From positions 128,001 through 192,000 of the forward strand of contig CAWCRS010000007.1 in NCBI GenBank assembly GCA_963798085.1: DNA of 64,000 nucleotides, given 5' to 3'. The position numbers and the translations under genes were made by a program. This document shows positions 34,954 to 49,808 of the stretch, one piece after another. Positions within the stretch are counted from its first letter, which is position 1; each line of letters starts with the position of its first letter. The stretch comes from an uncultured Gemmatimonadales bacterium (GTDB lineage Bacteria; Gemmatimonadota; Gemmatimonadetes; Longimicrobiales; RSA9). The notes under the pieces were generated by a model. That model had not been told where the DNA came from. It did no database searches and worked only from the letters and a program-made list of their open reading frames with translations.

Positions 34954-35177
34954 TTCCTCCGTCTGTGGTCAGCCCGACTCACGCCCGCCGCAGCGAGCGC
35001 ACGCCGGGTAGGAATGCGCTCGGACCTATTCGCAAACTGCCCCAATCGGGTGAATTTCGCAACCCCCCGCGGCCTTCGTTCGCCCGGTCCCGGACCGCTT
35101 GCAGAGGGGGGCGCACAGTGATTAATTCGTCGTCTGACAACTCCCCCGGGCACGCCACCGCTCCCCCAGGAGGCTCC

Positions 35178-37518
35178 GTGTTCCGCAATGCTGCGCTCAG
35201 CGTGTGCCTCGGTCTCGCTCTGACATCCGCTGCACGCGCCCAGACTCCCGATTACAGCCGTGCCGAACGTTTTCTCAGCTGGAACACCAGCACCCTGATT
35301 TCCGGCGACCAGGTCGCGCCGCGCTGGATGTTCGGCGGCAATCGCTTCTGGTATCGCAACAAGACCGGATCCGGCTACGAATTCGTGCTGGTCGATCCGG
35401 TACGCAACACGAAAGGACCGCTCTTCGACCAGCTATCGGCTGGCCGCCGCAATGAGCATGGCGAACGACACGTCGTATCTGCCGGACAAGCTGCCCTTCA
35501 GCTCGTTCGACTTCCAGAAGAACGAGACCGCGATCGCGTTCCGCGTGGGGAAGAAGCGCTTCGAGTGCAGCATCCAGGTCTACACCTGCGCCGTGGGTGA
35601 CACGACGTATGACACGGGGCCCTACGTACTGTCGCCGGATTCCGCGTGGGAAGTTTTCTCGGAGGGCTACAACCTGTACCTGCGGCCGCGCGGCGGCGGC
35701 AAGGATTCGGTCCGTCTCACGACCGATGGCGAAGAATATTTCGCGTACGGCATTGGCATGCCACAGCCGCAGACACTGCTCCGCAACCCGCACCCGCACC
35801 AACGTCCCAGCGTGGTGTGGTCGCCGGACTCGAAGAAGATCGTGGTCACACGCACGGATGAGCGACACGTCCTGCACATGCACTACATCTCGTACACTTC
35901 CACGCGGCCACGCCATTTCGAGAAGCCGTACGCGTTGCCCGGCGACTCCATCGTGGCCGTGCCCAGCCTGCACCTGCTCGACCTCACGCAGACGCTGGCC
36001 GCGCTCAAGGCGGACGGTGCGGCCGTACCGCCGCCGGCGAATATGCGCGTCGAGCTGCAGCCCGCGCCCTTCCGCCTGGGCATGAACACATCCGTCCGTG
36101 GATTCGCTGTGGAGCTCGAATTCCGACAGGATCTACGTCACCACGTACACGCGCGGCGCGAAGAAGCTGCTGCTCACGGAGATCGACGCGCACACCGGCG
36201 CGCAGCGCATTCTCGCGGGTGACAGCTCGAAGACCAACGTGATCGGCCAGGAGTACATCGAGCAGAAGAGCTGGTACGTCTCCCGCGACGGCAAGGACGT
36301 GATCTGGTGGTCGGAGCGCGATGGCTGGGCCCACCTCTGGCTCTATGATGGCAATGGCAGCGTGAAGAACGAGATCACGTCCGGCGCCTGGCCCACCGGC
36401 GAGATCGGCACGTGGACGAAGTGAAACGGCAGATCTGGTTCATCGGCCGCGGGCGCGAGCCAGGGTCGCAACATCTACTACGGCTACCTGTACCGGATCA
36501 ACTTCGACGGCACCGGGCTGACGCTGCTCACGCCCGAGGACGGAGACCACGCCATCACGTTCTCGCCCAGCGGCCAGTTCTTCGTGGACAGTACTCGCGC
36601 ATCGAGACGCCGCCCGTGACCGTGCTGCGCCGCGCGCTCGATGGCAGCGTCGTGCGCGAGCTGGAGAAGGCCGACATTTCCCGCCTCGTCGAGATCGGCT
36701 GGAAGCCGGCGCAGGTGTTCTCGGCCAAGGCCCGCGACGGGCTAACAGACATTTACGGCGTCATGTACCTGCCGCCCAACATGGACTCGACGAAGAAGTA
36801 CCCGGTCATCGAGAACATCTACCCGGGCCCGTTCGTGGGCAGCGTGGGCTCATGGTCGTTCAAGTCGGGCGGCGAGCCGTTCGCACTGGCGCAGCTGGGC
36901 TTCGTCGTGGTGCAGATCGATCACATGGGCACGCGCTACCGGTCCAAGGCCTTCCACGACAATTACTACGGCAACATGGCCGACAACGGCATCCCCGACC
37001 ACATTGTCGCCATCAAGCAGCTGGCCTCGCGCTACCCGTTCATCGACATCGACCGCGTCGGCATCTACGGCCATTCGGGCGGCGGCTTCGCATCGACGGA
37101 TGCGATCCTGCGCTATCCGGACTTCTACAAGGTGGCCGTGTCCGGCTCGGGCAATCACGACAACGCGACCTACGGCGATTACTGGGGTGAGACCTACCAG
37201 GGCCTGATGACGAAGGACCCGAAGACCGGCAAGACGAACTACGAGAGTCAGGCCAACCGCCTGGTCGCCGGCAACCTGCAGGGCCACCTGCTGCTCATGA
37301 CCGGCGATGTGGATGACAACGTGCACCCGGCCATGACGATCCAGGTGATCGATGCGCTGATCAAGGCGAACAAGGATTTCGATTTCATCCTGGCGCCCGA
37401 CCGCGGCCATGGTCTGGATGAGCCGTATTTCATCCGCCGCCGCTGGGACTACTTCGTACGTTATCTCATGGGCGCGGAGCCGCCCCACCAGTACGAGATC
37501 AAGCGACCGGGCGGCTGA
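35178..37518 (+). CDS. S9 dipeptidyl peptidase IV-like protein; frameshifted
   Basis: Signal peptide; DPP IV N-terminal propeller (WSPDSKK, WSERDGWAHL); GHSGGG, DDNVH, RGH catalytic triad. Confidence 0.9.
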
Positions 37519-38074: not shown

Positions 38075-39358
38075 TTGAGCAACCGCATCCGCATCTTCCT
38101 GAGCCACAGTTCCGGCAACAACGCGCTGACGGCGGGGGTCGCTGCCATTCTCGGCAGGCAGCGCCAGGCGGACGGCATCACACCCGCGTACGACGTGCTC
38201 GTCGACAAGGAGCGCCTGGAAACAGGCCGGCCATGGCCGAAGCAGCTGCACGCGTGGCTGGCACAGTGTCATGCCGGGCTGGTGCTGCTCACCGAAGAGG
38301 CCGTGAAATCGGCATGGGTGCTCAAGGAGTCGACGATCCTGCAATGGCGGCTGGATCGCGACCCGGCGTTCCGGCTCTTCATCGTGCGTTTCGCGGAAGC
38401 CACGGATGCGCTGCTCGAGCAGTACCGCTTCGCGCCGCTGGAGCTGCGTCGCATCCACAGCATCAAGGTAACGGAAGCGGGCGCCGCAGGCCGGCCGGCG
38501 AGCTGGTCGGACATCGAGACGCGCATCACGAACGAACTGGGCAAACAGCTGGTTGGGGTCCGTACGTATGCGACACCCTTCGATCAGCTCGTCGATGACC
38601 TGGGCAAGTGGCTGGGCAATGCCAGCGACAGCGCGCTCCAGGAAGTGGCGGAGCGCGTACGCGCCGAGCCGCCCGCCTGGGACGCGCAGCGCGACGAGCG
38701 CGAGCAGTATCTGGAAGAGATCGCGCGCCGCATCCTGAGCGAGAACCTGGGTGGTTTTGCGGGCGTGCATGACCTGATCGGTGTGCTGGGCCGCTCTCTC
38801 GACAAGGGGCCGCTGCAGGATGTCCTCGACATTGTGGCGCCGCACTGGGTGGATGGCGTGGCCGCATCCCGCCTGCGTGTGATCAGCAATGCGCCCCGCC
38901 CCATCACGGCGGCGCTGAACGGCGAGGCGGTGCAGCAGTACACGGCCCGCATGTACGTGATGCGCGCGCATTTCATGGGTATCGACTTCGTGCTGCCGGA
39001 GGTGGCCGGGGGCGATGCCGGCGAAGGCCCCGAATACATCTCGAGCCAGATCTGCCGCTGGTTCCGCGACCGCAACATCCTGCTGGGCTCCGACACCGCG
39101 ATACGCAAGGCGCTGCAGACCTGGCCGGCGACCGTGTACGTGGTGCTGCCGGATCCCATCGATAACGCCGCATTACAGCAGCTCAAGTCGTGGTACGAGA
39201 AGGTGACGTTCATTTTTCCGACCGGCGAGACCATGCAGACAGACCCTTCGCTGGAGGATGTCGAGTGTCTGGAGCCGGCGGTGGATGTCACCGTCGAGAC
39301 GGAACAGCAGGGCAGCTTCAATGCAGCCGTCGCATTCATCGCCAACAAGAAACGGTGA
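38075..39358 (+). CDS. TIR-domain protein with an uncharacterised C-terminal (iSTAND/vMAP-like) region
   Basis: IFLSHSS...VLVDKERLETG.PW...GLVLLTEEAVKSAWVLKE (catalytic Glu retained); TTG start. Confidence 0.85.
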   Translation: MSNRIRIFLSHSSGNNALTAGVAAILGRQRQADGITPAYDVLVDKERLETGRPWPKQLHAWLAQCHAGLVLLTEEAVKSAWVLKESTILQWRLDRDPAFRLFIVRFAEATDALLEQYRFAPLELRRIHSIKVTEAGAAGRPASWSDIETRITNELGKQLVGVRTYATPFDQLVDDLGKWLGNASDSALQEVAERVRAEPPAWDAQRDEREQYLEEIARRILSENLGGFAGVHDLIGVLGRSLDKGPLQDVLDIVAPHWVDGVAASRLRVISNAPRPITAALNGEAVQQYTARMYVMRAHFMGIDFVLPEVAGGDAGEGPEYISSQICRWFRDRNILLGSDTAIRKALQTWPATVYVVLPDPIDNAALQQLKSWYEKVTFIFPTGETMQTDPSLEDVECLEPAVDVTVETEQQGSFNAAVAFIANKKR

Positions 39359-39393
39359 ACCGCAGGCCGCGCGCGCGGTCGACAGGAGACAGG

Positions 39394-40396
39394 ATGGAAT
39401 TCGAGCCCGTACACTTCAATCCGTTGCAGCGGCAGGGCGGCAGGCAGCTGGATGACGGGACCGTGGCTTTCCGCGCCAGCGACGAGCCCGGCGACATCTA
39501 CCTGTACGCGCCGCGCGTCATCCTGGCGCTGAATGTGGCCCTCGCCACAGGCCGGCCACTCCTCATCTATGGCGAGCCCGGATCAGGCAAGACGACGCTG
39601 GCCTGGAACGCATCCCGGGTGCTGGGCTGGCGCTACTACAAACGCATGATTACTTCGCGCACGCAGGCGTCCGATCTGCTCTGGACGTTCGATGCGCTCA
39701 GCCGCCTGAATGATGCCACCGCCGGCGAACTGCGGTCGCGGGAACAGTACGTCGAGCCCGGTACGCTCTGGTGGGCCTTTCACCCGGAGACTGCCGAGCA
39801 CCGCGGTACGCGCGCGCCGCTGGCGCCGGCCGACCGGGCGCAGAACCCCTGGCAGGGTGAGGCGTCGGAGCAGGCGGTGGTGCTGATCGACGAGATCGAC
39901 AAGGCCGACCCCAATGTCCCCAACGATCTGCTGGAAGCGTTCGACATCCGCGCCTTCACCGTGAGCGAGACGCGGGACCGGGTGAGCGCGCCCCGCGATC
40001 GCTCCGTGCTGATGATCCTGACCAGCAATAGCGAGCGCGAGCTGCCGCCCGCGTTCCTGCGCCGCTGCGTGGCGCTGACCCTGTCGATTCCGGAGGATAC
40101 GGAAAAGGAGAAACTGCAGGAGAACTGGTTCGTGCAGATCGCCAACCAGCGCCGTGGCGACGCCGATCAGGCGCTGCACCGTGATGTGGCACGCGAGAAT
40201 GGTCCGCCTGCGCACGGCCGCCCGCAGCCTGGGCAGTCGCCCGCCGGGCACGGGCGAGTACCTCGATGCGCTGGCCGCGTGCAGCGGCCTGGGTGTGGGC
40301 ACGGACACGGAAGCCTGGCAGGAGATCCTGACCAGCGTGCTGTGGAAGAAGGAATCGGCACCGGCGCTGCGGCCGGAAACACCGGGCCAGGCGTAG
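39394..40396 (+). CDS. MoxR-family AAA+ ATPase (indel near 40197)
   Basis: Walker A GEPGSGKT, Walker B VLIDEIDKA, TSNSERELPPAFLRRC; C-terminal PPGTGEYLDAL in the shifted frame. Confidence 0.9.
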
Positions 40397-40399
40397 CGC

Positions 40400-41413
40400 G
40401 TGTCGGGCGACGAGGCGCGCACGCAGCGCCGGGCCATCTCGCTGGGCGACGCGATCCGTGCTAATGCGTCGTTAAGGCCGCGCGACAGGGAAGCGCACGC
40501 CGCCATCACGGAGATGCTCGGGCTGGAACAGGAAGCGCTCGAGCCGGTGCAGCCGAGTGAAGGCGTCTGGAAGGCGTCCAGCGCACAGCAGCCGGGCATG
40601 ATCTCACCGGCACCTCTGCCGGCGCAGCCGGCCGCGCCCGTGTCGCGTCCCCTGCCGGCGGACAGCCCGCCCGCCGCGGTGCCCTTCACACTGCGCAAGA
40701 TCGATCGCCCGACATCACCCATGAGTGCCCCCGCATGGCTGAGCGTTCCCGGACCCACGCTGGCGCCGGCCTCGGCGTCGGACGCTTCGCCTGAGCCGCC
40801 GCCGCTCTTCGGGCCGCCCCGCGGGCGCGCCATTCTCTCCACCGCTGTCGCCACGACCGTGGACGAAGGCGAAGTCGACATCCAGCCGATCCTCGACTGG
40901 ATAACACGCGGTCAGCCGGTGCGCGCACTGCCTCGCCGGCCCAGCCTCACGCTGCGCCGCGGCGTACAGCTGCTGCTCAATGTGGGCGCCGGCATGACGC
41001 CGTACCAGCGCGATCGCGAACAGCTGCGGCGAGGGCTCGATGACATCCTGGCCGACGATCAGCTCACGCAATACGAATTCGTCGGCTGTCCGACGCGCGG
41101 CATGGGCAGGGGCGTGCGCGCCGGCTGGAAGCCATGGCAGCCGCCGGCGCCCGGAACACCCGTCGTCGCCGTAACGGATCTCGGACTGGGCGGACCGCCC
41201 CTCGATCGCGACCGCGCGGATGCCGAGGAGTGGCTCGAATTCGCTCGCCTCGTGCACGGCCGCGGCCACATGCTGATGTGCCTCGTGCCCTACGAAGCAC
41301 GGCGCTGGCCGCCCGTGCTGGCGCGCAGCATAACCCTGATCCACTGGAGCGAACGCACGACCGTCGGCTCCGTACGGCGAGCGCTGCGCGAGGCGAGGTC
41401 ACGACTGCGATGA
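40400..41413 (+). CDS. vWA-like MoxR partner with Pro-rich linker and degenerate MIDAS
   Basis: VDIQPIL...LPRRPSLTLRRGVQLLLNVGAGM.P...F.GCP...VVAVTDLG...W..F...LVPY...RWP; lies directly after MoxR. Confidence 0.75.
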   Translation: MSGDEARTQRRAISLGDAIRANASLRPRDREAHAAITEMLGLEQEALEPVQPSEGVWKASSAQQPGMISPAPLPAQPAAPVSRPLPADSPPAAVPFTLRKIDRPTSPMSAPAWLSVPGPTLAPASASDASPEPPPLFGPPRGRAILSTAVATTVDEGEVDIQPILDWITRGQPVRALPRRPSLTLRRGVQLLLNVGAGMTPYQRDREQLRRGLDDILADDQLTQYEFVGCPTRGMGRGVRAGWKPWQPPAPGTPVVAVTDLGLGGPPLDRDRADAEEWLEFARLVHGRGHMLMCLVPYEARRWPPVLARSITLIHWSERTTVGSVRRALREARSRLR

Positions 41414-44400
41414 CGGCACAGGAGCGCGCCGCCAGCCGGTTCCGTGCGTTCAGCGTGCAGCGGCCGCAGGCTGCGCAGCTGGCGCGCCTGCTCTCGCTCG
41501 CCGTGCGTGCCGAATCGCATTCTCATACGACGACTCCGCCTCGAGCTGCCGCCGCACGCAGACGTCAGCGCCGAAGCTGATCTCTGGTTCAGTCCTCTTG
41601 TCGAGTCGCGCGGACCGGACCTCATCGTGCTGGAGCGCAACGTGGCCGCAATGCTGCGTGAGACGCTGGCCGGCGACGGGCTGCTCGAGCCGGTCATGCG
41701 CATCACGCGCGAAGCGCATCAACACGCGCCCGAGGCGATTCGACTGGAAGAGAAGGTCAACGGACTGGCGCTGTTGAACCGCGCCGCCGCACTGGACGAA
41801 ATCGACGAAGCGCTGCGCGCAGCGATCCGCGCCATGCGCGTGGACAATGAGCGCGGCCGCGAGATCGCCCGCTGGATCACGCGCGCCGGGCCTCGCCTGC
41901 ACCCCATCGTGCAGCAGTGCCCGAGCTGCATGACCCTGCTGCTGGGCGCCTCCGTGCTGCTGGGCCGGCGCACGGTCGAGCCAATGCCGCAGAGCAGCGT
42001 GCCGCTGCGCGATCTGGGCTGGATCCTGCCCGCTGCCGCGCTCGAGGCGCGTACCGAACTCGCGGTTTCCCGCGTGACGGGCGGCCTGCTCTTCTCAGCG
42101 CCCATCAGCGGTGCGATCACGATTGGTCTGCCGCAGACCAATCCGCTGCTCCTCGAGGTTGCGTGGGAATCCGCTGGTTCATCACTGCGCACCCTGCTCG
42201 AGCCCACGCCCGGTCACATGCTGCCGCTCCCCGCCGATGCGCTCGAATGTGCGCATCACGACGCTGGCAGGCGACGAGTACTCGCTGGCACTGACGGCGC
42301 CGATCGCTGCCGCGTCGCAGACGCAGACCCCGGCGCCGGAACCGGCCGCGGAGGCCGGAGAACGCAGGACCGCGTGGGTCGATGCCGGCGAGTACGCGGA
42401 AATCGCCGCCGCGTGCGTCCGCATTCACTCGTACGATGCGGACGGCTCCTGGGCTACGGGTTTCGTGCTGGCGTCGGGCGTGCTGGTCACGTCGCGCCCG
42501 CCGTTCCGCGACGCCCGCGAGCTGCGCGTCGAGTCGCGCGCACCGGAGCAGAAGGCCGACGTGCTCAATGGGACGACCGAAGAACCTGTGCTGGTCCTGA
42601 GGGCCGCCAACGCTAACGACCTGTCAGAAAGCGCGGTCCGCGTTGACAATCCGCCGTTCCGGGTGGCTGGTGGTACGCGACTCGGCGTCTCGGGTGTGTC
42701 GCAACAGGCGGGATCCCTGCGGCCGGAGGACATCGAGGCTGTGATCATGGGTTTCGACGGCGACCAGCTGCGGGCCATGCGCGGCCTGGCCACCATCGAA
42801 ACGCCGGACTCTCGCCGCTTCGAGGTGCGCATCGAATCGGACGAGGCGGTGCCTTCGTCGTTCGTGGGCGGGCCCGTGATCATGGAGGGCCGCGTGTGCG
42901 GCATCGTCCTCAGCGCCCAGGGCGCACCCGTGCCGGAAAGCGGGCAGGCCTCGACCCGCGCGTGGATCATCACGGCGGCCAGCGGCACGGTCATCGACGA
43001 GACGGTACGTGCGGCTGCGTCGTCGCCTGCGGCCGCCGGGGAAGGAGCCGAAACGGCGTCCGGGACCGGCGCGGGTGCCCGGGAGCAGGCGCAGCCACAG
43101 ACGGCAGGCGCCGCACCAGCCGATAATGAGGTGTTACCACCGGAACTCCGGCAGCTGCCCGACTGGGTGGCGGGCGCCTGCGTGGAGCTGCACGGGCTGG
43201 GCGACAACATTACGCCCGTGGCGGGCTTCTTCGTGGACGAGCGCCACGTGGTCACCGCCGCGCAGGCGATCCGCGGGATCCCCATCCTCAATGTGCGACA
43301 GGGTTCGCGGGCGCAGCAGGCGAGGGTGCTGGCGGCGACGGCAGACAGCGCGCTCCGCCTGCTGGAGCTGATCGACGATGCATCAGGACGCGCACAGCCC
43401 TTCGACACACACACCGGCTACGTCAGCGTGGCCCGACTCGCGACCAGCCTCACGGAGCAGCGCGGTAACACCCTGCTCGTCCCCTCCGATGCCACCATCG
43501 TGGCGCGCACCACCGATGGGTTCCAGGTACTGCACGGCAGGGTGCGCACTACGGACTCGCGGCCTTCAGCCTTCGAGGTGCGGGCGGAGGAACACTGGCT
43601 GCCCGCCAGCTGGCTGGGGGCGCTGGTCCTCATCCGGGGCGAGACGGCGGGCGTCGTAACCGGCATTGATAATCCGGTGTTGGGCGACGCCCAGCTGCAG
43701 GTCACCGGATTTCCCGTGATCCGGCAGGCCCTCGAGCGGGTCGATCGGGTGGCCCGGCAGCAGACCGGCGACACTGCGGAGGTGCAACAGCGCGTAGCCG
43801 AGCGGGCATGGTCGAGCGGTGCGCACGGGTATCGCTTTGCGCGCGTGCTGGTGGTGGGTGATGCCGGCAGCGGTCGAGGCACGCTCATGCGTGCCCTCGC
43901 AGCCAGTCGCGAGCCGGTCGCCAGCGACCTGCGGCGCACGATCTGGTGGGAGGAGGAGCCCCGCGTCGCCCCCGAGCTGCACGCGGGTGTCGTGCTCTAC
44001 AAGGCGCTCACTGATGACTGGTGGCCCATCGCGTTCGACCTTGAGCAGAGTGCGCTGATCATGGTGCTGGCCAATGTACACGGTGCGTCCGGACGTGCGC
44101 AGAGCTGGGCCGGTCGACTGCGCGCGGCCGCGCCGGTGCACTGCCCGATCCTTTTCGTGGGCAGTCGTGCGGACACGCTCGACGATGATGCGAAGAGCAT
44201 GTCGATCGAGCTGGAAGGCCTGGCCCGCTCCGACACCGCGACGTGGCCCGAGCCGCCTCGCCTCGAGCCCACTTCCACGATCGTCAGTGCGGAGCGCGCC
44301 ATCAACATTGATCGCCTGCGTACGATGATCCTGCGCAACATCGACTGGGCGCGACAGGTGGAGGTACAGTCGGAGGCGTTTGCACGCGCCCGCAACCAGA

Positions 44401-45122
44401 CCGGCGACATCATCCGGCGTGCGGGCGGCGCGGCCGCCAAGGAGTCGCGGCCCGGCTCCGCCAGCGGGCAGCAGAGCATCCTGCGTGGCAGCCCGCTGCG
44501 ATTCGGCTGGTACGACCAGCTGGCGCCGCTGCTCGGCGAACGCCGCCTGCGCGACGGTACGCTCGTGATCGATGATCCCGCGCGTTTCGAAGACGAAGTC
44601 CTCGCGATCATGCAGGCCGTTCGCGACAACACGCTCGGTGCTCCCGCGGCGCGACTCGCAGAGCTGGAGCGTACCGCGACCTGGGCCGTCGACATTGCCG
44701 GCGAACTGCAACGCATTGGCGAAGGGCGCCTCATCGATACCGATGCAGGTCGCGTCATTGTGGTGCCGCGCTGGCTCAAGGGCGGCACGTTACCGCGTGA
44801 CCTGGCGGAACCGGCGCCGCTGCTGATGTCGCGCCGCCTGCAGGGAGCTACGCGCGATGTGTGTTCGCTGCTGGCAGCCCGGTTCGCATATACGTCGGCA
44901 GTGAAGCTTGTCGGTGTGGGTTGCGACACGGAGGGGCGAGGCCGGCTGAACGCCAGCATCGGCGGCGCCACGCTGCAGCTCGATCTGCGCCAGGACGAGC
45001 GATGGAGCGATCTCGAGGTGCGCGCGGCCCGCGAGAGTCTACCGGAGAAACGGCTCGAAGCGCCGCTGGCACAGCTGGACCGCTGGTTGAACGAACTGCA
45101 CCTGACCATACCGGTCGCCTGA
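41410..45122 (+). CDS. Large multidomain protein: vWA-associated N-terminus, two trypsin-like domains and a Roc-COR-like GTPase region (indels near 41515 and 42245)
   Basis: LARLLSLAVR...AEADLWFSPLV; CVRI...TGFVL...LVT/GGPVI.EGRVCGIV; CVEL...GFFVD..HVVTAA; RVLVVGDAGSGRGTL...LFVGSRAD...VSAE...IDW; ATGA overlap with the vWA gene. Confidence 0.7.
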
Positions 45123-45171
45123 CCGCAGCATGCGTTCCGGATGCCCGCGACGGCATTGTCGCCATGCCGCG

Positions 45172-45894
45172 CTACAGCGGATGAAGCTGCAGCACGCCGT
45201 GGTGCGCGACCGGCGACGCGTCCGCTCCGGCGCCGGCATTTGTCGCACCTGCCGGTTGCGCCAGCAGGTCGGTCACGTCTTCATCCGTGAGCTGCGGGAA
45301 CGACTCGTAGAACTGGCCCACGCCGGGGAACCAGTCCGGCCGCAGCAGGCAGACGACTTCGGCGCCATCGCGGGTCAGCGCATCGCACACGCCGGGCGGG
45401 GCCACGGGGACGCATACCACCACGTGCGCCGCACCCTGCCGGCGCACCGCCGCCACCGCCGCACGCATTGTGGAGCCGGTCGCGATGCCGTCGTCCACAA
45501 TGACGGCCGTACTGCCATTGAGCGACAGCGGCGGCCGCCCTCCGCGGTAGAGTCGCTCGCGACGCTCCATCTCGCGCTGCTCGACGGCGGTCACCCGATC
45601 GAACTTCTCGGCCGGGATGTACAACTCGCTGATGACCTGCCAGTTCAGCATGCGGATGCCGCCACTGGCGATGGCGCCCATGGCCAGTTCCGGCTGTTCC
45701 GGTACGCCCAGCTTGCACACGATCAGGGTGTCGAGCGGGCGCGCCAGCGCACGCGCCACTTCACGACCGATGGGAACACCGCCGCGCGGAAGCGCAAGTA
45801 CCACCAGGTTGGTGCGGTCGCGCAAATGCTCCACGCGCCGCGCCAACTCGCCGCCGGCCTCGGCCCGATCGCGGAAGAGAGGCAAACGCCTCAT
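45172..45894 (-). CDS. Phosphoribosyltransferase-family protein
   Basis: FRDRAEAG, LALPRGGVP, PELAMGAI, PRPP motif VIVDDGIATGST, VGQFYESF.Q. Confidence 0.92.
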   Translation of the reverse strand: MRRLPLFRDRAEAGGELARRVEHLRDRTNLVVLALPRGGVPIGREVARALARPLDTLIVCKLGVPEQPELAMGAIASGGIRMLNWQVISELYIPAEKFDRVTAVEQREMERRERLYRGGRPPLSLNGSTAVIVDDGIATGSTMRAAVAAVRRQGAAHVVVCVPVAPPGVCDALTRDGAEVVCLLRPDWFPGVGQFYESFPQLTDEDVTDLLAQPAGATNAGAGADASPVAHHGVLQLHPL

Positions 45895-46062
45895 CGGGAT
45901 CCTTCCCATCCCTGAAACCGACAGGGCACAACCACCTGACGCCGCCACACGCCCGCAACGCACTGCGCCCGCAGGACAAGGGCAGCGTGGTTTGCTGGGC
46001 GAAGCAGTAAGGGCGGGCGTGCCAGTCAGGACTTCAGAACACGTGCGAAAGCGAGCCGTCGC

Positions 46063-46491
46063 TCAGGCGACGCAGAGCTGCTCGTCTTCCTGTGGCGTTA
46101 CCTGGATGAACCGCGCCCAGTCCGCATCCAGCACGACTGTCCGGCCACCGGGCGTTTCCAGCAGCACGATCGCCCGCGAATTCTGACGGCAGTGCATGGT
46201 CGATCCTTCTTCGAGACCTATGCCGTAACACAGGTCCTTTAGTGAGCCGAAGAGGATCCGCTCGATGCGGATGGTCTCGTCAGGGTGGACCTCGGCGAGA
46301 CTGCGAAGGGACGATGCTGCCTGCGCGCCGAACATGGCTGCTCCGACGTTGGACATGAACCGGGGAAGTCCGCGGAAGGCGTTGCCAGCGCCCCGCCGGT
46401 CCCGAACAATGACTCCGGCGCCAGTGTCGGACAGTAGGGATTCCTCCCCATCGACCGCCGGGAATTCACCGCCAAACAGGATGTTTTTCAC
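46063..46491 (-). CDS. Small protein with a C-terminal FeoA-like (SH3-like) domain
   Basis: SLAEVHPDETIRIERI...LCYGIGLEEGSTM...VVLDADWARFIQV resembles the FeoA pattern. Confidence 0.5.
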   Translation of the reverse strand: MKNILFGGEFPAVDGEESLLSDTGAGVIVRDRRGAGNAFRGLPRFMSNVGAAMFGAQAASSLRSLAEVHPDETIRIERILFGSLKDLCYGIGLEEGSTMHCRQNSRAIVLLETPGGRTVVLDADWARFIQVTPQEDEQLCVA

Positions 46492-46614
46492 CTACGTTCC
46501 CGGGTTTCCTGCAAAACGCGCTGTTTGGCGGTCGTTTTCGGCGCAAGCGATGCGATGACCTGCCCGGTCCCCGGCCCGCAGGCGCAGGTTCGCCGGATGC
46601 GGCCGGCGGCTGCT

Positions 46615-48588
46615 TCAGGGCCGCCGCTGAACCAGCAGCACGGCCCGCGCGCTGGCCGCGGGATCGTCACGGGTGAAGGCCGCGACCTGCAGGCGCTTGT
46701 CCAGCAGAGCCTCGCGATCGCTCGCGGCCAGTATGAGGGAGCCGGTGGCGTGCAGCTCGCCGCCGTGCGAGAGGCGGGCGATCACGGGTCCCACCGTCTC
46801 GCCCGGGGCCACGCGGAACAGGGCCACGGCCCGCACGCGGTCGGCCTCGAGGCCGGTGATGGTGAAGTCCCATGCCAGTCGGGCGTGCAGCGGGTCGAAC
46901 GTGAATTTCGCCTCCAGCGCAGCCGGCGGCTGTCCTGGCAGCGTGTTAGTGCCGGTGCGCGCGCTCAGCGTGATGGGCGGCGGAGCATGCCCGTCGACGA
47001 GCGCCGGCGTGGTCGCGGGCGGCCGGCGATGGTGCGTCGCCTGTTCGAAGGCATAGGCCAGGGCCACCAGGTGCGCGTCACTGAAGGGCCGGCCCAGCAG
47101 CTCAATGCCCACGGGCAGGCCGTTGCCGTTGAAGCCGGCCGGCGCAGTCAGGGCGGGGAACCCGGTCTGCGCGCTGAGTGCGCACGTGCTTCCGTTCTGC
47201 GGCTCATTGAGCAGCGCCGGCTCGCGGCGCATTGTCGGGTACACCAGGGCGTCCAGCTGCTGTGCATCCAGCGCTGCCATCACGGTCCGCTGCAGCGCGG
47301 CGCGCTGCGCGAGAGCCGCGCGATAGGCATCGGTTTCGCGCGCCGCCGCGGCGTTGCGCCGGCGCAGCCGTTCCTCCAGCGACGCGTGGTACAGGCCGGC
47401 GCGCAGGATGTCATCGAGCGAGTGCACGAATGCGGCCGGCGAGTGCGCCAGGTAATCGGCCAGGTCGAACTTGAACTCGTGGTCGATCACGCCCGAGCCC
47501 TGCAGCAGGGAATCGAGGCCGGCAATCTGCACGCTCACGACCTCCGCGCCCTGCTTCTGCATCTCATCGATCGCGGCGCGCACGACGCGCTGCATGGGCT
47601 GATCGTCCGGAGTATCGCCGAACAGCGGTTCGAGCACACCCAGGCGTGCGCCGCGCAAGGCATCGGCACGCAGCGAATCGGCGAAGTGCGGCATTGTCCG
47701 CTGCTGCACCGCCCGCGTGGCGCTGTCCTGCGCATCATAGCCCACCGTCACGTCCAGACCGATGGCCAGGTCCGTCACCGTGCGCGCCAGCGGTCCGGCG
47801 ACATCCTGCGTGTGCGAGAGCGGCACCACGCCCGCCACGCTGGACAGGCCCTTCGTCGGACGCAGTCCGAACAGGCTGTTCTGGGAAGCGGGGATGCGGA
47901 TCGAGCCGCAGGTGTCCGTGCCGTACCCCAGCGCCGCGAAGCTGGCCGCCACCGCGGCCGCCGTGCCACCGCTGGAACCGCCGGGATTGCGCGCGGGGTC
48001 GTACGGGTTGCGTGTCTGACCCCCCAGCGAACTGATGGTCGTGATGCCGGAAGCCAGCTCGTGCAGATTCGTCTTGCCCAGGATGATGGCGCCGGCTTCC
48101 TTCAGCCGCCGCACCTGGAACGCGTCGGCGATGGCGATGTTGCCGGCCAGTGCGACCGAGCCCGCGGTGGTAGGCGCGCCCTGCAGGTCGAAGTTGTCCT
48201 TGATGACGACGGGTACGCCGTGCAGCGGCCCGTGCAGCCGGCCCGCCGTGCGCTCCCGGTCCAGGTACGCGGCTTCCGTGCGCGCGCCCGGGTTGATCCA
48301 GAGCAGGGCATTGAGTGCAGGCCCCGCCGTGTCGTACGCCGCCATGCGTGCCAGGTAGGCGTCGACGAGCTGCGCCGAAGTGACGCGCCCGTTCGCCAGT
48401 GCCTCGAGAATGGCGGGAATGCCGGCCTCGGTCACCTCGAATGCTGTTGCGGCGCTGCGGGCTGCGGCCGGTTGCGTCTGAGCCCGCACACCAGCCGGCG
48501 CCAGCCCCAAACTCAGTGTTATCAATCTGGCCAGCATCCCCGCCAGCGCGGGCCGCGGGGTGCGGCAGGAAGCAGCGTCGTGGATCAT
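46615..48588 (-). CDS. Secreted amidase-signature protein with a C-terminal CHRD-like extension
   Basis: GPLHGVPVVIKDN, GKTNLHE, PGGSSGG, GTDTCGSIRIP (Ser-cisSer-Lys); ~100-aa extra C-terminal domain. Confidence 0.9.
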   Translation of the reverse strand: MIHDAASCRTPRPALAGMLARLITLSLGLAPAGVRAQTQPAAARSAATAFEVTEAGIPAILEALANGRVTSAQLVDAYLARMAAYDTAGPALNALLWINPGARTEAAYLDRERTAGRLHGPLHGVPVVIKDNFDLQGAPTTAGSVALAGNIAIADAFQVRRLKEAGAIILGKTNLHELASGITTISSLGGQTRNPYDPARNPGGSSGGTAAAVAASFAALGYGTDTCGSIRIPASQNSLFGLRPTKGLSSVAGVVPLSHTQDVAGPLARTVTDLAIGLDVTVGYDAQDSATRAVQQRTMPHFADSLRADALRGARLGVLEPLFGDTPDDQPMQRVVRAAIDEMQKQGAEVVSVQIAGLDSLLQGSGVIDHEFKFDLADYLAHSPAAFVHSLDDILRAGLYHASLEERLRRRNAAAARETDAYRAALAQRAALQRTVMAALDAQQLDALVYPTMRREPALLNEPQNGSTCALSAQTGFPALTAPAGFNGNGLPVGIELLGRPFSDAHLVALAYAFEQATHHRRPPATTPALVDGHAPPPITLSARTGTNTLPGQPPAALEAKFTFDPLHARLAWDFTITGLEADRVRAVALFRVAPGETVGPVIARLSHGGELHATGSLILAASDREALLDKRLQVAAFTRDDPAASARAVLLVQRRP

Positions 48589-48776
48589 GGTACGGTGACT
48601 CCCCGGACGTGGGACAGCCGCGCCGAGGCCCGGCGCGGGGAGCATAATCGCGGGTTCTGTTCCCTGGTGCGAGTGCGACCGCGCGGTCCGGCTTCCGCGC
48701 GCTGCCTCGTGGACGGGTCATGGTGCGGCGCCCGGGAAGGTGCTTGCGCCGGGACGCAGACAGCGTCGCGTCCGCC

Positions 48777-49808
48777 TCAGCGGTGCGTAACGACGAGTTG
48801 CGTGTACGCCACCCCGTCGGGCGTGTTGTTGGCGGGGACGTAGCCGGCGACCTTGCGGGCGGCGATGTCAATGATGGCGATGCGGTCCTGGGCGGAGAGC
48901 GAGAGGAACGCGTAGCGTCCGTCGGGGCTCAGGATGATGCCTTGCGGACCGCCGCCGGTCAGGCTCAGACGGGCCAGCTCCCGGCGGCTGGCGCGGTCCA
49001 CGAAGCGCAGTTCCTCGCGTCGCGCGTCCGGTAACAGCACGGTTCGCAGGTCGGGCGTGAAGCGGATGCGATAGGGAAAGCCGAAGCTGTCCTGTGCCGT
49101 GGTGACGGTGCCGGTGCGCGGGTCGAGCACGCTCACCTTGCCTTCCGTGTTGCTGCCCACCCAGACCTCGCTGCCGTCCGGCGTCACGTTGATCGCTTCG
49201 GGTTGCGCCGGGACCGGAAAGCTCTTCACGAACCGGCCAGCGGGAAGGTCCAGTTCCGACACCGTATTGCTGCGGATGTTGCCCGTGTAGATGCGCGTGT
49301 GATCCCGGACCAGCGCCAGCATGTGCGAGGTGTTCTGCTCGGTGGGAATGACTCGCCGCACTTCACCCGCCTGCACGTTCACCACGAGCACGTTGCCCGT
49401 CACCTCCGATGTCACTAACACGAGACTGTCAGCGGCCAGGAAGGTGATGCCGTGCGGCCGCAGATACTGGCCGAGATCGATCGTGCGCACCACACGCAGA
49501 CCCGGCACGTCGATCACCGTCAGCGTGTGACCGCCCTGCTGTGCACCGTAGTCCGACACCACGGCCACGCGGCCATCATCGGAAACCGCGACCTCGTGCG
49601 GACCGTTGCCCGTGGGCAGCGCCGCCAGCACGCGGCCTGTCGCGAGGTCCACGATGCTGGCCGTTGATGGCGCCTTGTTCGTGATGATCAGCGTGCCCGT
49701 GACGCCCGGCACCTGCGCGCCCGCTGTGCACGGCAGCAATACGGCCAGCACGATGAGTCGCACCATCCAGCGGGTGCAGGCGACGATGTTCGTCCGGCAT
49801 CGGTTCAT
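48777..49808 (-). CDS. YncE/YVTN-type beta-propeller protein
   Basis: Signal peptide; PHEVAVSDDG, PHGI, PEAINVTPDG, PDGVA repeats. Confidence 0.85.
   Translation of the reverse strand: MNRCRTNIVACTRWMVRLIVLAVLLPCTAGAQVPGVTGTLIITNKAPSTASIVDLATGRVLAALPTGNGPHEVAVSDDGRVAVVSDYGAQQGGHTLTVIDVPGLRVVRTIDLGQYLRPHGITFLAADSLVLVTSEVTGNVLVVNVQAGEVRRVIPTEQNTSHMLALVRDHTRIYTGNIRSNTVSELDLPAGRFVKSFPVPAQPEAINVTPDGSEVWVGSNTEGKVSVLDPRTGTVTTAQDSFGFPYRIRFTPDLRTVLLPDARREELRFVDRASRRELARLSLTGGGPQGIILSPDGRYAFLSLSAQDRIAIIDIAARKVAGYVPANNTPDGVAYTQLVVTHR

What the first reader, a model, noticed from the sequence alone, without database searches (positions are those of the whole stretch)
38075..45122. Four-gene TIR / MoxR / vWA / multidomain-effector operon: candidate ternary conflict (anti-phage) system
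Seen: four co-oriented genes with gaps of 35 bp, 3 bp and an ATGA overlap. They encode a TIR protein with its catalytic Glu intact, a MoxR ATPase with intact Walker motifs, a vWA-like protein and a roughly 1,230-aa multidomain protein. The block sits between unrelated housekeeping genes. Established: MoxR-vWA ternary systems with a vMAP/iSTAND-type third component, trypsin or caspase peptidases and variable effectors are predicted conflict systems, and bacterial TIR domains act as NADases or signal generators in defence. Inference: this is a variant in which TIR is the only clearly active toxic or signalling enzyme, held in check or released by MoxR-vWA remodelling. I cannot place this exact gene combination.
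Basis: partly seen in the sequence, partly recalled or inferred. Interest (0 to 1): 0.85.

Follow-up and report, generated by a model that had tools for sequence, protein, structure and literature searches.

The report
TERNS3 defence operon hides eroded STAND
These four genes are a new copy of a bacterial defence-type system that was predicted in 2021 and is apparently still untested; its one unexplained domain is predicted here to be a worn-down relative of the ATP switch of plant and animal immune receptors, which would leave a separate ATPase to trigger a likely NAD-destroying enzyme.

Summary
The four genes, gaps and motifs are as described. The three frame breaks are very probably assembly errors, since rpoB and rpoC are broken too. 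The combination is catalogued: it is a TERNS3 MoxR-vWA ternary system (Kaur et al. 2021, PMC8195603), i.e. TIR+TERNS3-N+TERNS3, MoxR, vWA, and a separate vWA-L+effector gene. A family member found here (WP_169849771.1) is in the paper's TERNS3 table. The gene order holds in all 13 metagenome loci long enough to show it.

Most likely mechanism (inferred): the variable tail binds an invader protein, MoxR-vWA remodels the complex, and TIR-TERNS3 oligomerises and consumes NAD+. No earlier scan note covered this sequence. Verdict: new member of a known kind; interest 0.36.

The parts
38075..39358 (+). Gene 1: TIR + TERNS3-N + TERNS3 (427 aa), the third component of the ternary system
   Evidence: ORF. 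Family member P0129 = WP_169849771.1 is listed as TIR+TERNS3-N+TERNS3 in PMC8195603 Fig. 2 source data 1; BLASTP to it E 1.5e-35, C-part alone E 2.7e-19
38075..38560 (+). TIR domain with catalytic-position Glu85 (codon at 38327)
38567..38830 (+). All-helical middle domain (TERNS3-N of the paper, assigned by position)
   Evidence: Helices at residues 168-258 in the models; barely covered by the fold searches
38825..39343 (+). TERNS3 core: predicted eroded AAA+/STAND domain without Walker A or B
39394..40396 (+). Gene 2: MoxR AAA+ ATPase; one apparent assembly frameshift near 40198
   Evidence: AAA_5; Walker A, Walker B and arginine-finger motif present; groups with 22 other TERNS3-linked MoxRs apart from 5 iSTAND-linked ones, support 100/100
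40400..41413 (+). Gene 3: stand-alone divergent vWA protein (helical N-terminus, Pro-rich linker, vWA-like core)
   Evidence: Alignment A2; hhalign to the CoxE-type vWA of this genome's iSTAND locus, E 1.4e-4; MIDAS-position N194 (D in 18 of 19) and D260
41410..45122 (+). Gene 4: vWA-L module plus variable tail, about 1,236 aa; apparent assembly frameshifts near 41521 and 42245
41410..42290 (+). Conserved ~290-aa N-module (helical vWA-L plus a beta-rich extension)
   Evidence: Alignment A3; its first ~140 columns match gene 4 of this genome's split iSTAND locus, hhalign 90.6%, E 1.3e-6
42400..43750 (+). Two trypsin-like domains lacking the catalytic His and Ser (about 42400-43000 and 43160-43750); likely binding or decoy modules
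   Evidence: Trypsin_2 weak hits in 2 of 11 homologues, best E 0.0012; weak profile match to a serine protease chain, E 0.22; motif columns GGPV with A/V/I/L at the Ser position and no His
43830..45119 (+). Roc-like GTPase domain with eroded P-loop (GDAGSGRGT), followed by a probable COR-like region (inferred, untested)
   Evidence: Profile hits to EngA (E 0.0024) and LRRK2 Roc (E 0.047); Roc in 3 of 11 homologues, best E 0.0088; the P-loop Lys is kept in 4 of the 7 homologues that have the domain

Best explanation
The locus is a TERNS3-type MoxR-vWA ternary system of four genes, and it likely works as an ATP-gated suicide or dormancy switch: the variable tail of gene 4 would bind an invader protein, MoxR with its vWA adaptor would then remodel the complex, and the TIR protein would oligomerise through its predicted eroded STAND domain and consume NAD+. 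Shown: the gene set, its order, the family membership, intact TIR and MoxR motifs, the loss of catalytic residues in the tail, and the loss of Walker motifs in TERNS3. Predicted from a model and a profile comparison: TERNS3 is an AAA+/STAND-derived core. Inferred: one four-protein complex; sensing by the tail; MoxR supplying the switching energy that TERNS3 can no longer supply itself; TIR as the killing enzyme in this locus.
For: Membership. Gene order: MoxR follows in 34 of 34 metagenome loci with room, vWA in 21 of 21, vWA-L in 13 of 13, and in two Streptomyces plasmids next to IS elements or an integrase. Constant core with a swappable tail: TIR, TPR, DUF4062, glycosyl hydrolase, PLD, pentapeptide, metallo-beta-lactamase, CHAT, NB-ARC, NACHT, WD40. 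Within this subfamily the tail has one or two trypsin-like units, with or without DUF4062. TIR Glu is invariant (128 of 128). No SLATT, SLOG or sirtuin gene lies in this operon to receive a TIR-made signal. The fusions P0143 and P0150 join vWA-L and TIR-TERNS3 in one chain, which supports a shared complex. Patchy distribution: the vWA query hit 2 of 61 related genomes. The genome holds two further ternary systems with different tails, as reported for these systems. That TIR NADases are activated by oligomerisation is established knowledge (recalled).
Confidence: 0.5

Rival explanations
1. Kaur et al. model: TERNS3 is the sensor (an inactive STAND that binds invader nucleic acid), TIR makes an ADP-ribose-derived signal, and MoxR-vWA releases the gene-4 tail, which acts as effector or decoy.
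For: Stated for TERNS3 (NAD+-derived signal) and for inactive STANDs (nucleic-acid receptors) in PMC8195603. The top fold matches are DNA-binding Orc/Cdc6 proteins. SLATT and SLOG genes adjoin some loci. R297 and A298 are near-invariant in the helix after the eroded P-loop.
Against: TERNS3 is constant in length and architecture while the tail is what varies. This operon has no evident signal receiver and a catalytically empty tail. The model has no winged-helix or repeat sensor domain after the core.
Confidence: 0.3
2. The module is a non-phage threat or stress signalling relay: MoxR-vWA passes a signal from the tail to a regulatory output without killing the cell.
For: A related but different MoxR-vWA pathway (Esr) was shown to relay sensing of epibiotic parasites to Esx secretion (PMC13622651, passages). 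Housekeeping surroundings and a stable position within the genus.
Against: No kinase, FHA or secretion genes here. Invariant TIR Glu, tail turnover, and plasmid copies beside IS elements.
Confidence: 0.12
3. This copy is a decaying remnant: the frame breaks and the vWA Asp-to-Asn change are real, and the operon no longer works in this organism.
For: Three frame breaks in 7 kb and one MIDAS-position substitution; public contigs did not cover these sites.
Against: Essential rpoB and rpoC are broken the same way. There are no in-frame stops once the breaks are read through with X. All TIR and MoxR motifs are intact, and the same-genus copy is whole.
Confidence: 0.08

Closest known systems
TERNS3 MoxR-vWA ternary systems (Kaur, Iyer, Burroughs, Aravind 2021, eLife, PMC8195603; author order recalled)
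   Same: TIR+TERNS3-N+TERNS3, then MoxR, vWA, and a separate vWA-L+effector gene. Gene 1 length (427 aa) is like most listed TIR forms. A listed member (WP_169849771.1) is a direct homologue.
   Different: None of the 79 rows I counted in the published table shows a trypsin+trypsin+Roc-like tail or a vWA-L...TERNS3 single-chain fusion. The paper calls TERNS3 a novel alpha+beta domain; here it is predicted to be an eroded STAND/AAA+.
iSTAND2 and iSTAND ternary systems (PMC8195603; PMC7159879; Pfam PF19995)
   Same: MoxR-vWA core with an inactive STAND as third component; iSTAND2 and a minority of iSTAND systems also split vWA from vWA-L+effector. This genome has two PF19995 systems, one of them split.
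   Different: No PF19995 hit for gene 1 or its relatives. TERNS3-linked MoxRs lie apart from iSTAND-linked ones in the tree. iSTAND2 mostly uses EAD plus trypsin rather than a fused TIR.
VMAP ternary systems (PMC7159879)
   Same: Third component built as enzyme + helical middle + conserved C-domain; inactive trypsins are typical in the effector position.
   Different: There the effectors are fused to the vWA chain and MoxR has N-terminal WxhapG/PsWRxa motifs; here the genes are separate and MoxR begins with another motif.
TIR-STAND immune receptors (plant TIR-NLRs such as RPP1; bacterial Avs)
   Different: No Walker motifs and no repeat sensor domain; switching would be outsourced to MoxR-vWA.

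Membership tests
TERNS3 ternary system | 5' gene carries the TERNS3 domain | tested here: met
   The profile of the C-part finds P0129 at E 4.8e-39; P0129 = WP_169849771.1, listed as TERNS3; BLASTP of the C-part E 2.7e-19. No published TERNS3 alignment was in the supplement zip.
TERNS3 ternary system | TIR (or peptidase/EAD) fused directly at the N-terminus | tested here: met
TERNS3 ternary system | MoxR AAA+ gene follows, with Walker motifs and arginine finger | tested here: met
TERNS3 ternary system | vWA encoded as a separate gene after MoxR | tested here: met
   Separate ORF in the window and in all homologous loci aligned; the vWA identity rests on hhalign E 1.4e-4 to a PF05762 protein and on position, with no direct Pfam hit
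TERNS3 ternary system | vWA keeps the two MIDAS aspartates (most ternary vWAs, PMC7159879) | tested here: inconclusive
   The family keeps both (D in 18 of 19 at each site); the window has N194 and D260; sequencing error not excluded
TERNS3 ternary system | Adjacent gene with vWA-L fused to variable C-terminal domains | tested here: met
   Conserved N-module with variable tails; homologous to gene 4 of a split iSTAND locus. The name vWA-L is assigned by position and this homology; no published profile was available.
TERNS3 ternary system | Enrichment in multicellular or aggregating hosts | not tested
   The host's identity and habit were not determined
TERNS3 ternary system | Counter-invader function through an NAD+-derived signal (predicted in the paper) | not testable with these tools
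   Needs bench work
iSTAND ternary system | Third component matches PF19995 | tested here: not met
   No hit for gene 1, the 18 members of A1 or 49 further relatives, while two other loci of this genome pass the cut-off. Remote homology stays open: the hhalign test failed its positive control.
iSTAND2 ternary system | Third component is the iSTAND2 module | not tested
   No profile or sequence was at hand; only the published table was read. The one accession tie found is to the TERNS3 table.
VMAP ternary system | Effectors fused to the vWA chain; MoxR with N-terminal WxhapG/PsWRxa motifs; VMAP-C domain | tested here: not met
   Separate genes; MoxR N-termini read MEFxxxxFxP (by eye); no VMAP or SAV_2336 model hit (that Pfam holds VMAP models is recalled)
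STAND/AAA+ NTPase (TERNS3 core) | AAA+-type alpha/beta core | tested here: met
STAND/AAA+ NTPase (TERNS3 core) | Walker A GxxxxGK[ST] and acidic Walker B | tested here: not met
   0 of 149 carry Walker A; the Walker B strand ends in L-P: an inactive derivative

The most novel reading that the evidence does not exclude
TERNS3 is a further, separately eroded STAND domain, which makes TIR-TERNS3 a minimal NLR-like NADase that has lost both its ATP switch and its sensor repeats. The sensor is supplied in trans as the swappable tail of gene 4, and the switching energy by MoxR-vWA: a 'disassembled NLR'. The natural vWA-L-TIR-TERNS3 fusions would be the same machine re-joined. With 1,455 clusters at 50% identity it would be a large untested TIR defence family that the Pfam, NCBIfam and PADLOC models searched do not name.
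Probability: 0.35. Interest if true: 0.68.

Novelty: new member of a known kind. Interest (0 to 1): 0.36.

Why it matters
The locus itself is another copy of a published prediction, so it is not a discovery. The useful gain is structural. If TERNS3 is an eroded STAND, three MoxR-vWA ternary classes (iSTAND, iSTAND2, TERNS3) share an inactive STAND as third component, and the open question of which part senses and which part kills becomes testable by tail swaps and two point mutants. The family is far larger than the 79 published rows (1,455 clusters), and a whole copy lies on a plasmid of a cultured Streptomyces.

Tried and rejected
Pfam, NCBIfam and PADLOC gave only generic TIR and AAA hits and no system name.

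The iSTAND lead from the ESM Atlas (scores 0.75-0.78) was tested and not confirmed. The comparison alignment was shallow (7 rows) and failed its positive control, so this is inconclusive for remote homology.

Reads: no RNA holder was listed, and soil-metagenome contigs covered parts of the operon but none of the three breaks.

The single-protein scan of genome contigs found one true locus of two. The class-wide profile search found only this genome and one marginal hit (E 8.8e-4, not examined) in 301 genomes; PF19995 was found in 1 of 151. The S. clavuligerus plasmid locus L073 held no TERNS3 match. The upstream membrane gene is not conserved beside homologous loci and was left out of the system. 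The word search 'TERNS3' matched anywhere returned noise. Earlier scan notes did not bear on the reading.
Full report
Observation. The four genes are there as described: 38075-39358, 39394-40396, 40400-41413 and 41410-45122, with gaps of 35 bp, 3 bp and an ATGA overlap. Gene 2 changes frame once and gene 4 twice against intact homologues. These breaks are very probably assembly errors. Of four essential genes checked, rpoB and rpoC are broken and dnaE and valS are whole; the adjacent S9 peptidase is also in pieces; the same-genus copy L011 is intact. Contigs of three public runs did not cover the breaks.

Conservation. A scan with the gene-1 alignment returned 52 metagenome loci, of which 43 carry the C-part of gene 1. 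Among those 43, MoxR is present in 34 of 34 with at least 200 bases of contig left, vWA in 21 of 21 with at least 1,500, and the gene-4 N-module in 13 of 13 with at least 2,600 (positions). Nine of the 43 were dropped because the contig ends within 200 bases. L056, with 1,416 bases left, shows MoxR but no vWA. The other 9 loci lack the C-part, mostly through truncation. The profiles were built from many of these loci and some loci are near-duplicates, so the scores are circular and the counts overstate independence; the gene positions are not circular. The same four genes occur in a Vicinamibacterales MAG, in the same-genus genome at the orthologous position and on two Streptomyces plasmids. 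The vWA query hit 2 of 61 related genomes, both of this genus. The C-part profile finds 1,455 clusters at 50% identity.

What it is. Kaur et al. 2021 (PMC8195603) define the TERNS3 systems: a 5' gene with a 'novel alpha+beta domain', most often fused to TIR, then MoxR, a separate vWA gene and a vWA-L+effector gene. One of my profile hits, P0129 (E 4.8e-39), is WP_169849771.1, which stands in their TERNS3 table. It was 1 of 17 proteins looked up, only 3 of which yielded accessions. The window protein matches it directly at E 1.5e-35, and at E 2.7e-19 without the TIR. [quoted passage not shown] Membership is therefore secure (about 0.97). It is not a PF19995 iSTAND, although the genome has two such systems elsewhere. 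In a tree of 28 MoxRs the 23 TERNS3-linked rows separate from the 5 iSTAND-linked rows at 100/100; no VMAP or iSTAND2 MoxR was included, and the window row is its unbroken first 268 residues.

What is added: the tail and the fusions. Gene 4 is a constant module of about 290 residues plus a tail that changes from locus to locus. Here the tail is two trypsin-like domains without the catalytic His or Ser and a Roc-like GTPase whose P-loop Lys is replaced. These assignments rest on weak profile hits (E 0.001-0.2) plus motif layout. Close relatives carry one or two trypsin units, with or without DUF4062. Two of the 150 listed hits, P0143 (a cluster mate is named from Chthoniobacter) and P0150, join the vWA-L module, TIR domains and TERNS3 in one chain. 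I saw neither this tail nor this fusion among the 79 rows of the published table, which does hold gene orders with TIR+TERNS3 directly after vWA-L+effector.

Mechanism. Shown: intact TIR Glu (128 of 128), intact MoxR motifs, no NTP-binding motif in TERNS3, a catalytically empty tail, and no SLATT, SLOG or sirtuin gene in this operon. Established: MoxR-vWA pairs capture and remodel client proteins; TIR NADases switch on by oligomerising (recalled). Inferred: the four proteins form a resting complex; an invader protein binds the tail; MoxR-vWA remodels the complex; TIR-TERNS3 assembles through its STAND-like surfaces and drains NAD+ (0.5). Sensing by the variable partner was proposed for VMAP systems by Dore et al. 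(author name recalled). The authors' own model, with TERNS3 as sensor and TIR as signal maker, is the main rival (0.3) and fits loci that have SLATT genes or enzymatic tails. A non-lethal relay as in the Esr pathway gets 0.12, and a decayed copy 0.08.

Papers seen. PMC7159879: abstract, passages, sections 8, 19, 20 and the first parts of 9, 10 and 35; its Fig. 1 source data was too large to read and could bear on split forms and tails. PMC8195603: section 6, passages, parts 3-5 of Fig. 2 source data 1 (the iSTAND2 and TERNS3 tables), part 1 of the alignment zip and a term search in it (no TERNS3); the figures themselves were not seen. 10.1101/2023.09.22.558884, PMC13622651 and 10.64898/2026.10.19.760177: passages only; bioRxiv supplements not seen. 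PMC12839542: search listing only.

Verdict. A real, conserved operon and a new member of a published but apparently untested class. The eroded-STAND reading of TERNS3 and the fusions are modest, testable additions. Interest 0.36; the boldest reading has probability 0.35 and would merit 0.68.

Noticed in passing
G000:C1 about 202,500-208,900 (L012:4522-10928, minus strand): A canonical iSTAND ternary system: DUF4062+iSTAND, MoxR, and a 1,362-aa protein that appears to join the vWA part to a long multi-membrane tail with no Pfam hit.
   Followed up: partly
G000:C5 about 247,800-253,600 (L013:5839-11615): A second iSTAND system in split form: DUF4062+iSTAND, MoxR, CoxE-type vWA, and vWA-L + Ser/Thr kinase + FxsC-like TIR. 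The genome thus holds three ternary systems with different tails.
   Followed up: partly
P0143, P0150: Single-chain fusions of the vWA-L module, two TIR domains and TERNS3; their gene neighbourhoods were not read.
   Followed up: partly
L051:1345-2109 and L052:564-1328: TIR sequence is followed within about 15 bases by the last 60 residues of MoxR and then vWA: an apparent internal deletion of TERNS3 and most of MoxR, seen in two near-identical contigs.
   Followed up: no
L069:4438-6510 (Streptomyces plasmid NZ_CP107864.1): The TIR-TERNS3 protein carries an N-terminal DpdA-like (7-deazapurine DNA modification) domain, PF23859 E 1.2e-47; not seen in the published TERNS3 table.
   Followed up: no
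L029:6176-8992: The gene-4 tail is a glycogen-branching-enzyme-like module (CBM48 plus alpha-amylase domains), a housekeeping enzyme captured in the effector position.
   Followed up: no
window 40979-40981: The vWA first MIDAS-position Asp is Asn in this copy only (1 of 19); error or real change not resolved.
   Followed up: partly
window 45130-48800: The phosphoribosyltransferase, a small ORF and an amidase lie between the operon and the YNCE-like beta-propeller gene; in the same-genus genome the operon abuts that propeller gene directly, so this block is an insertion here or a loss there.
   Followed up: partly
window 34965-37518; G000:C5 431,855-440,305: Frameshifted S9 peptidase, rpoB and rpoC: the assembly carries frequent indels, so broken genes anywhere in this genome need caution.
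   Followed up: yes
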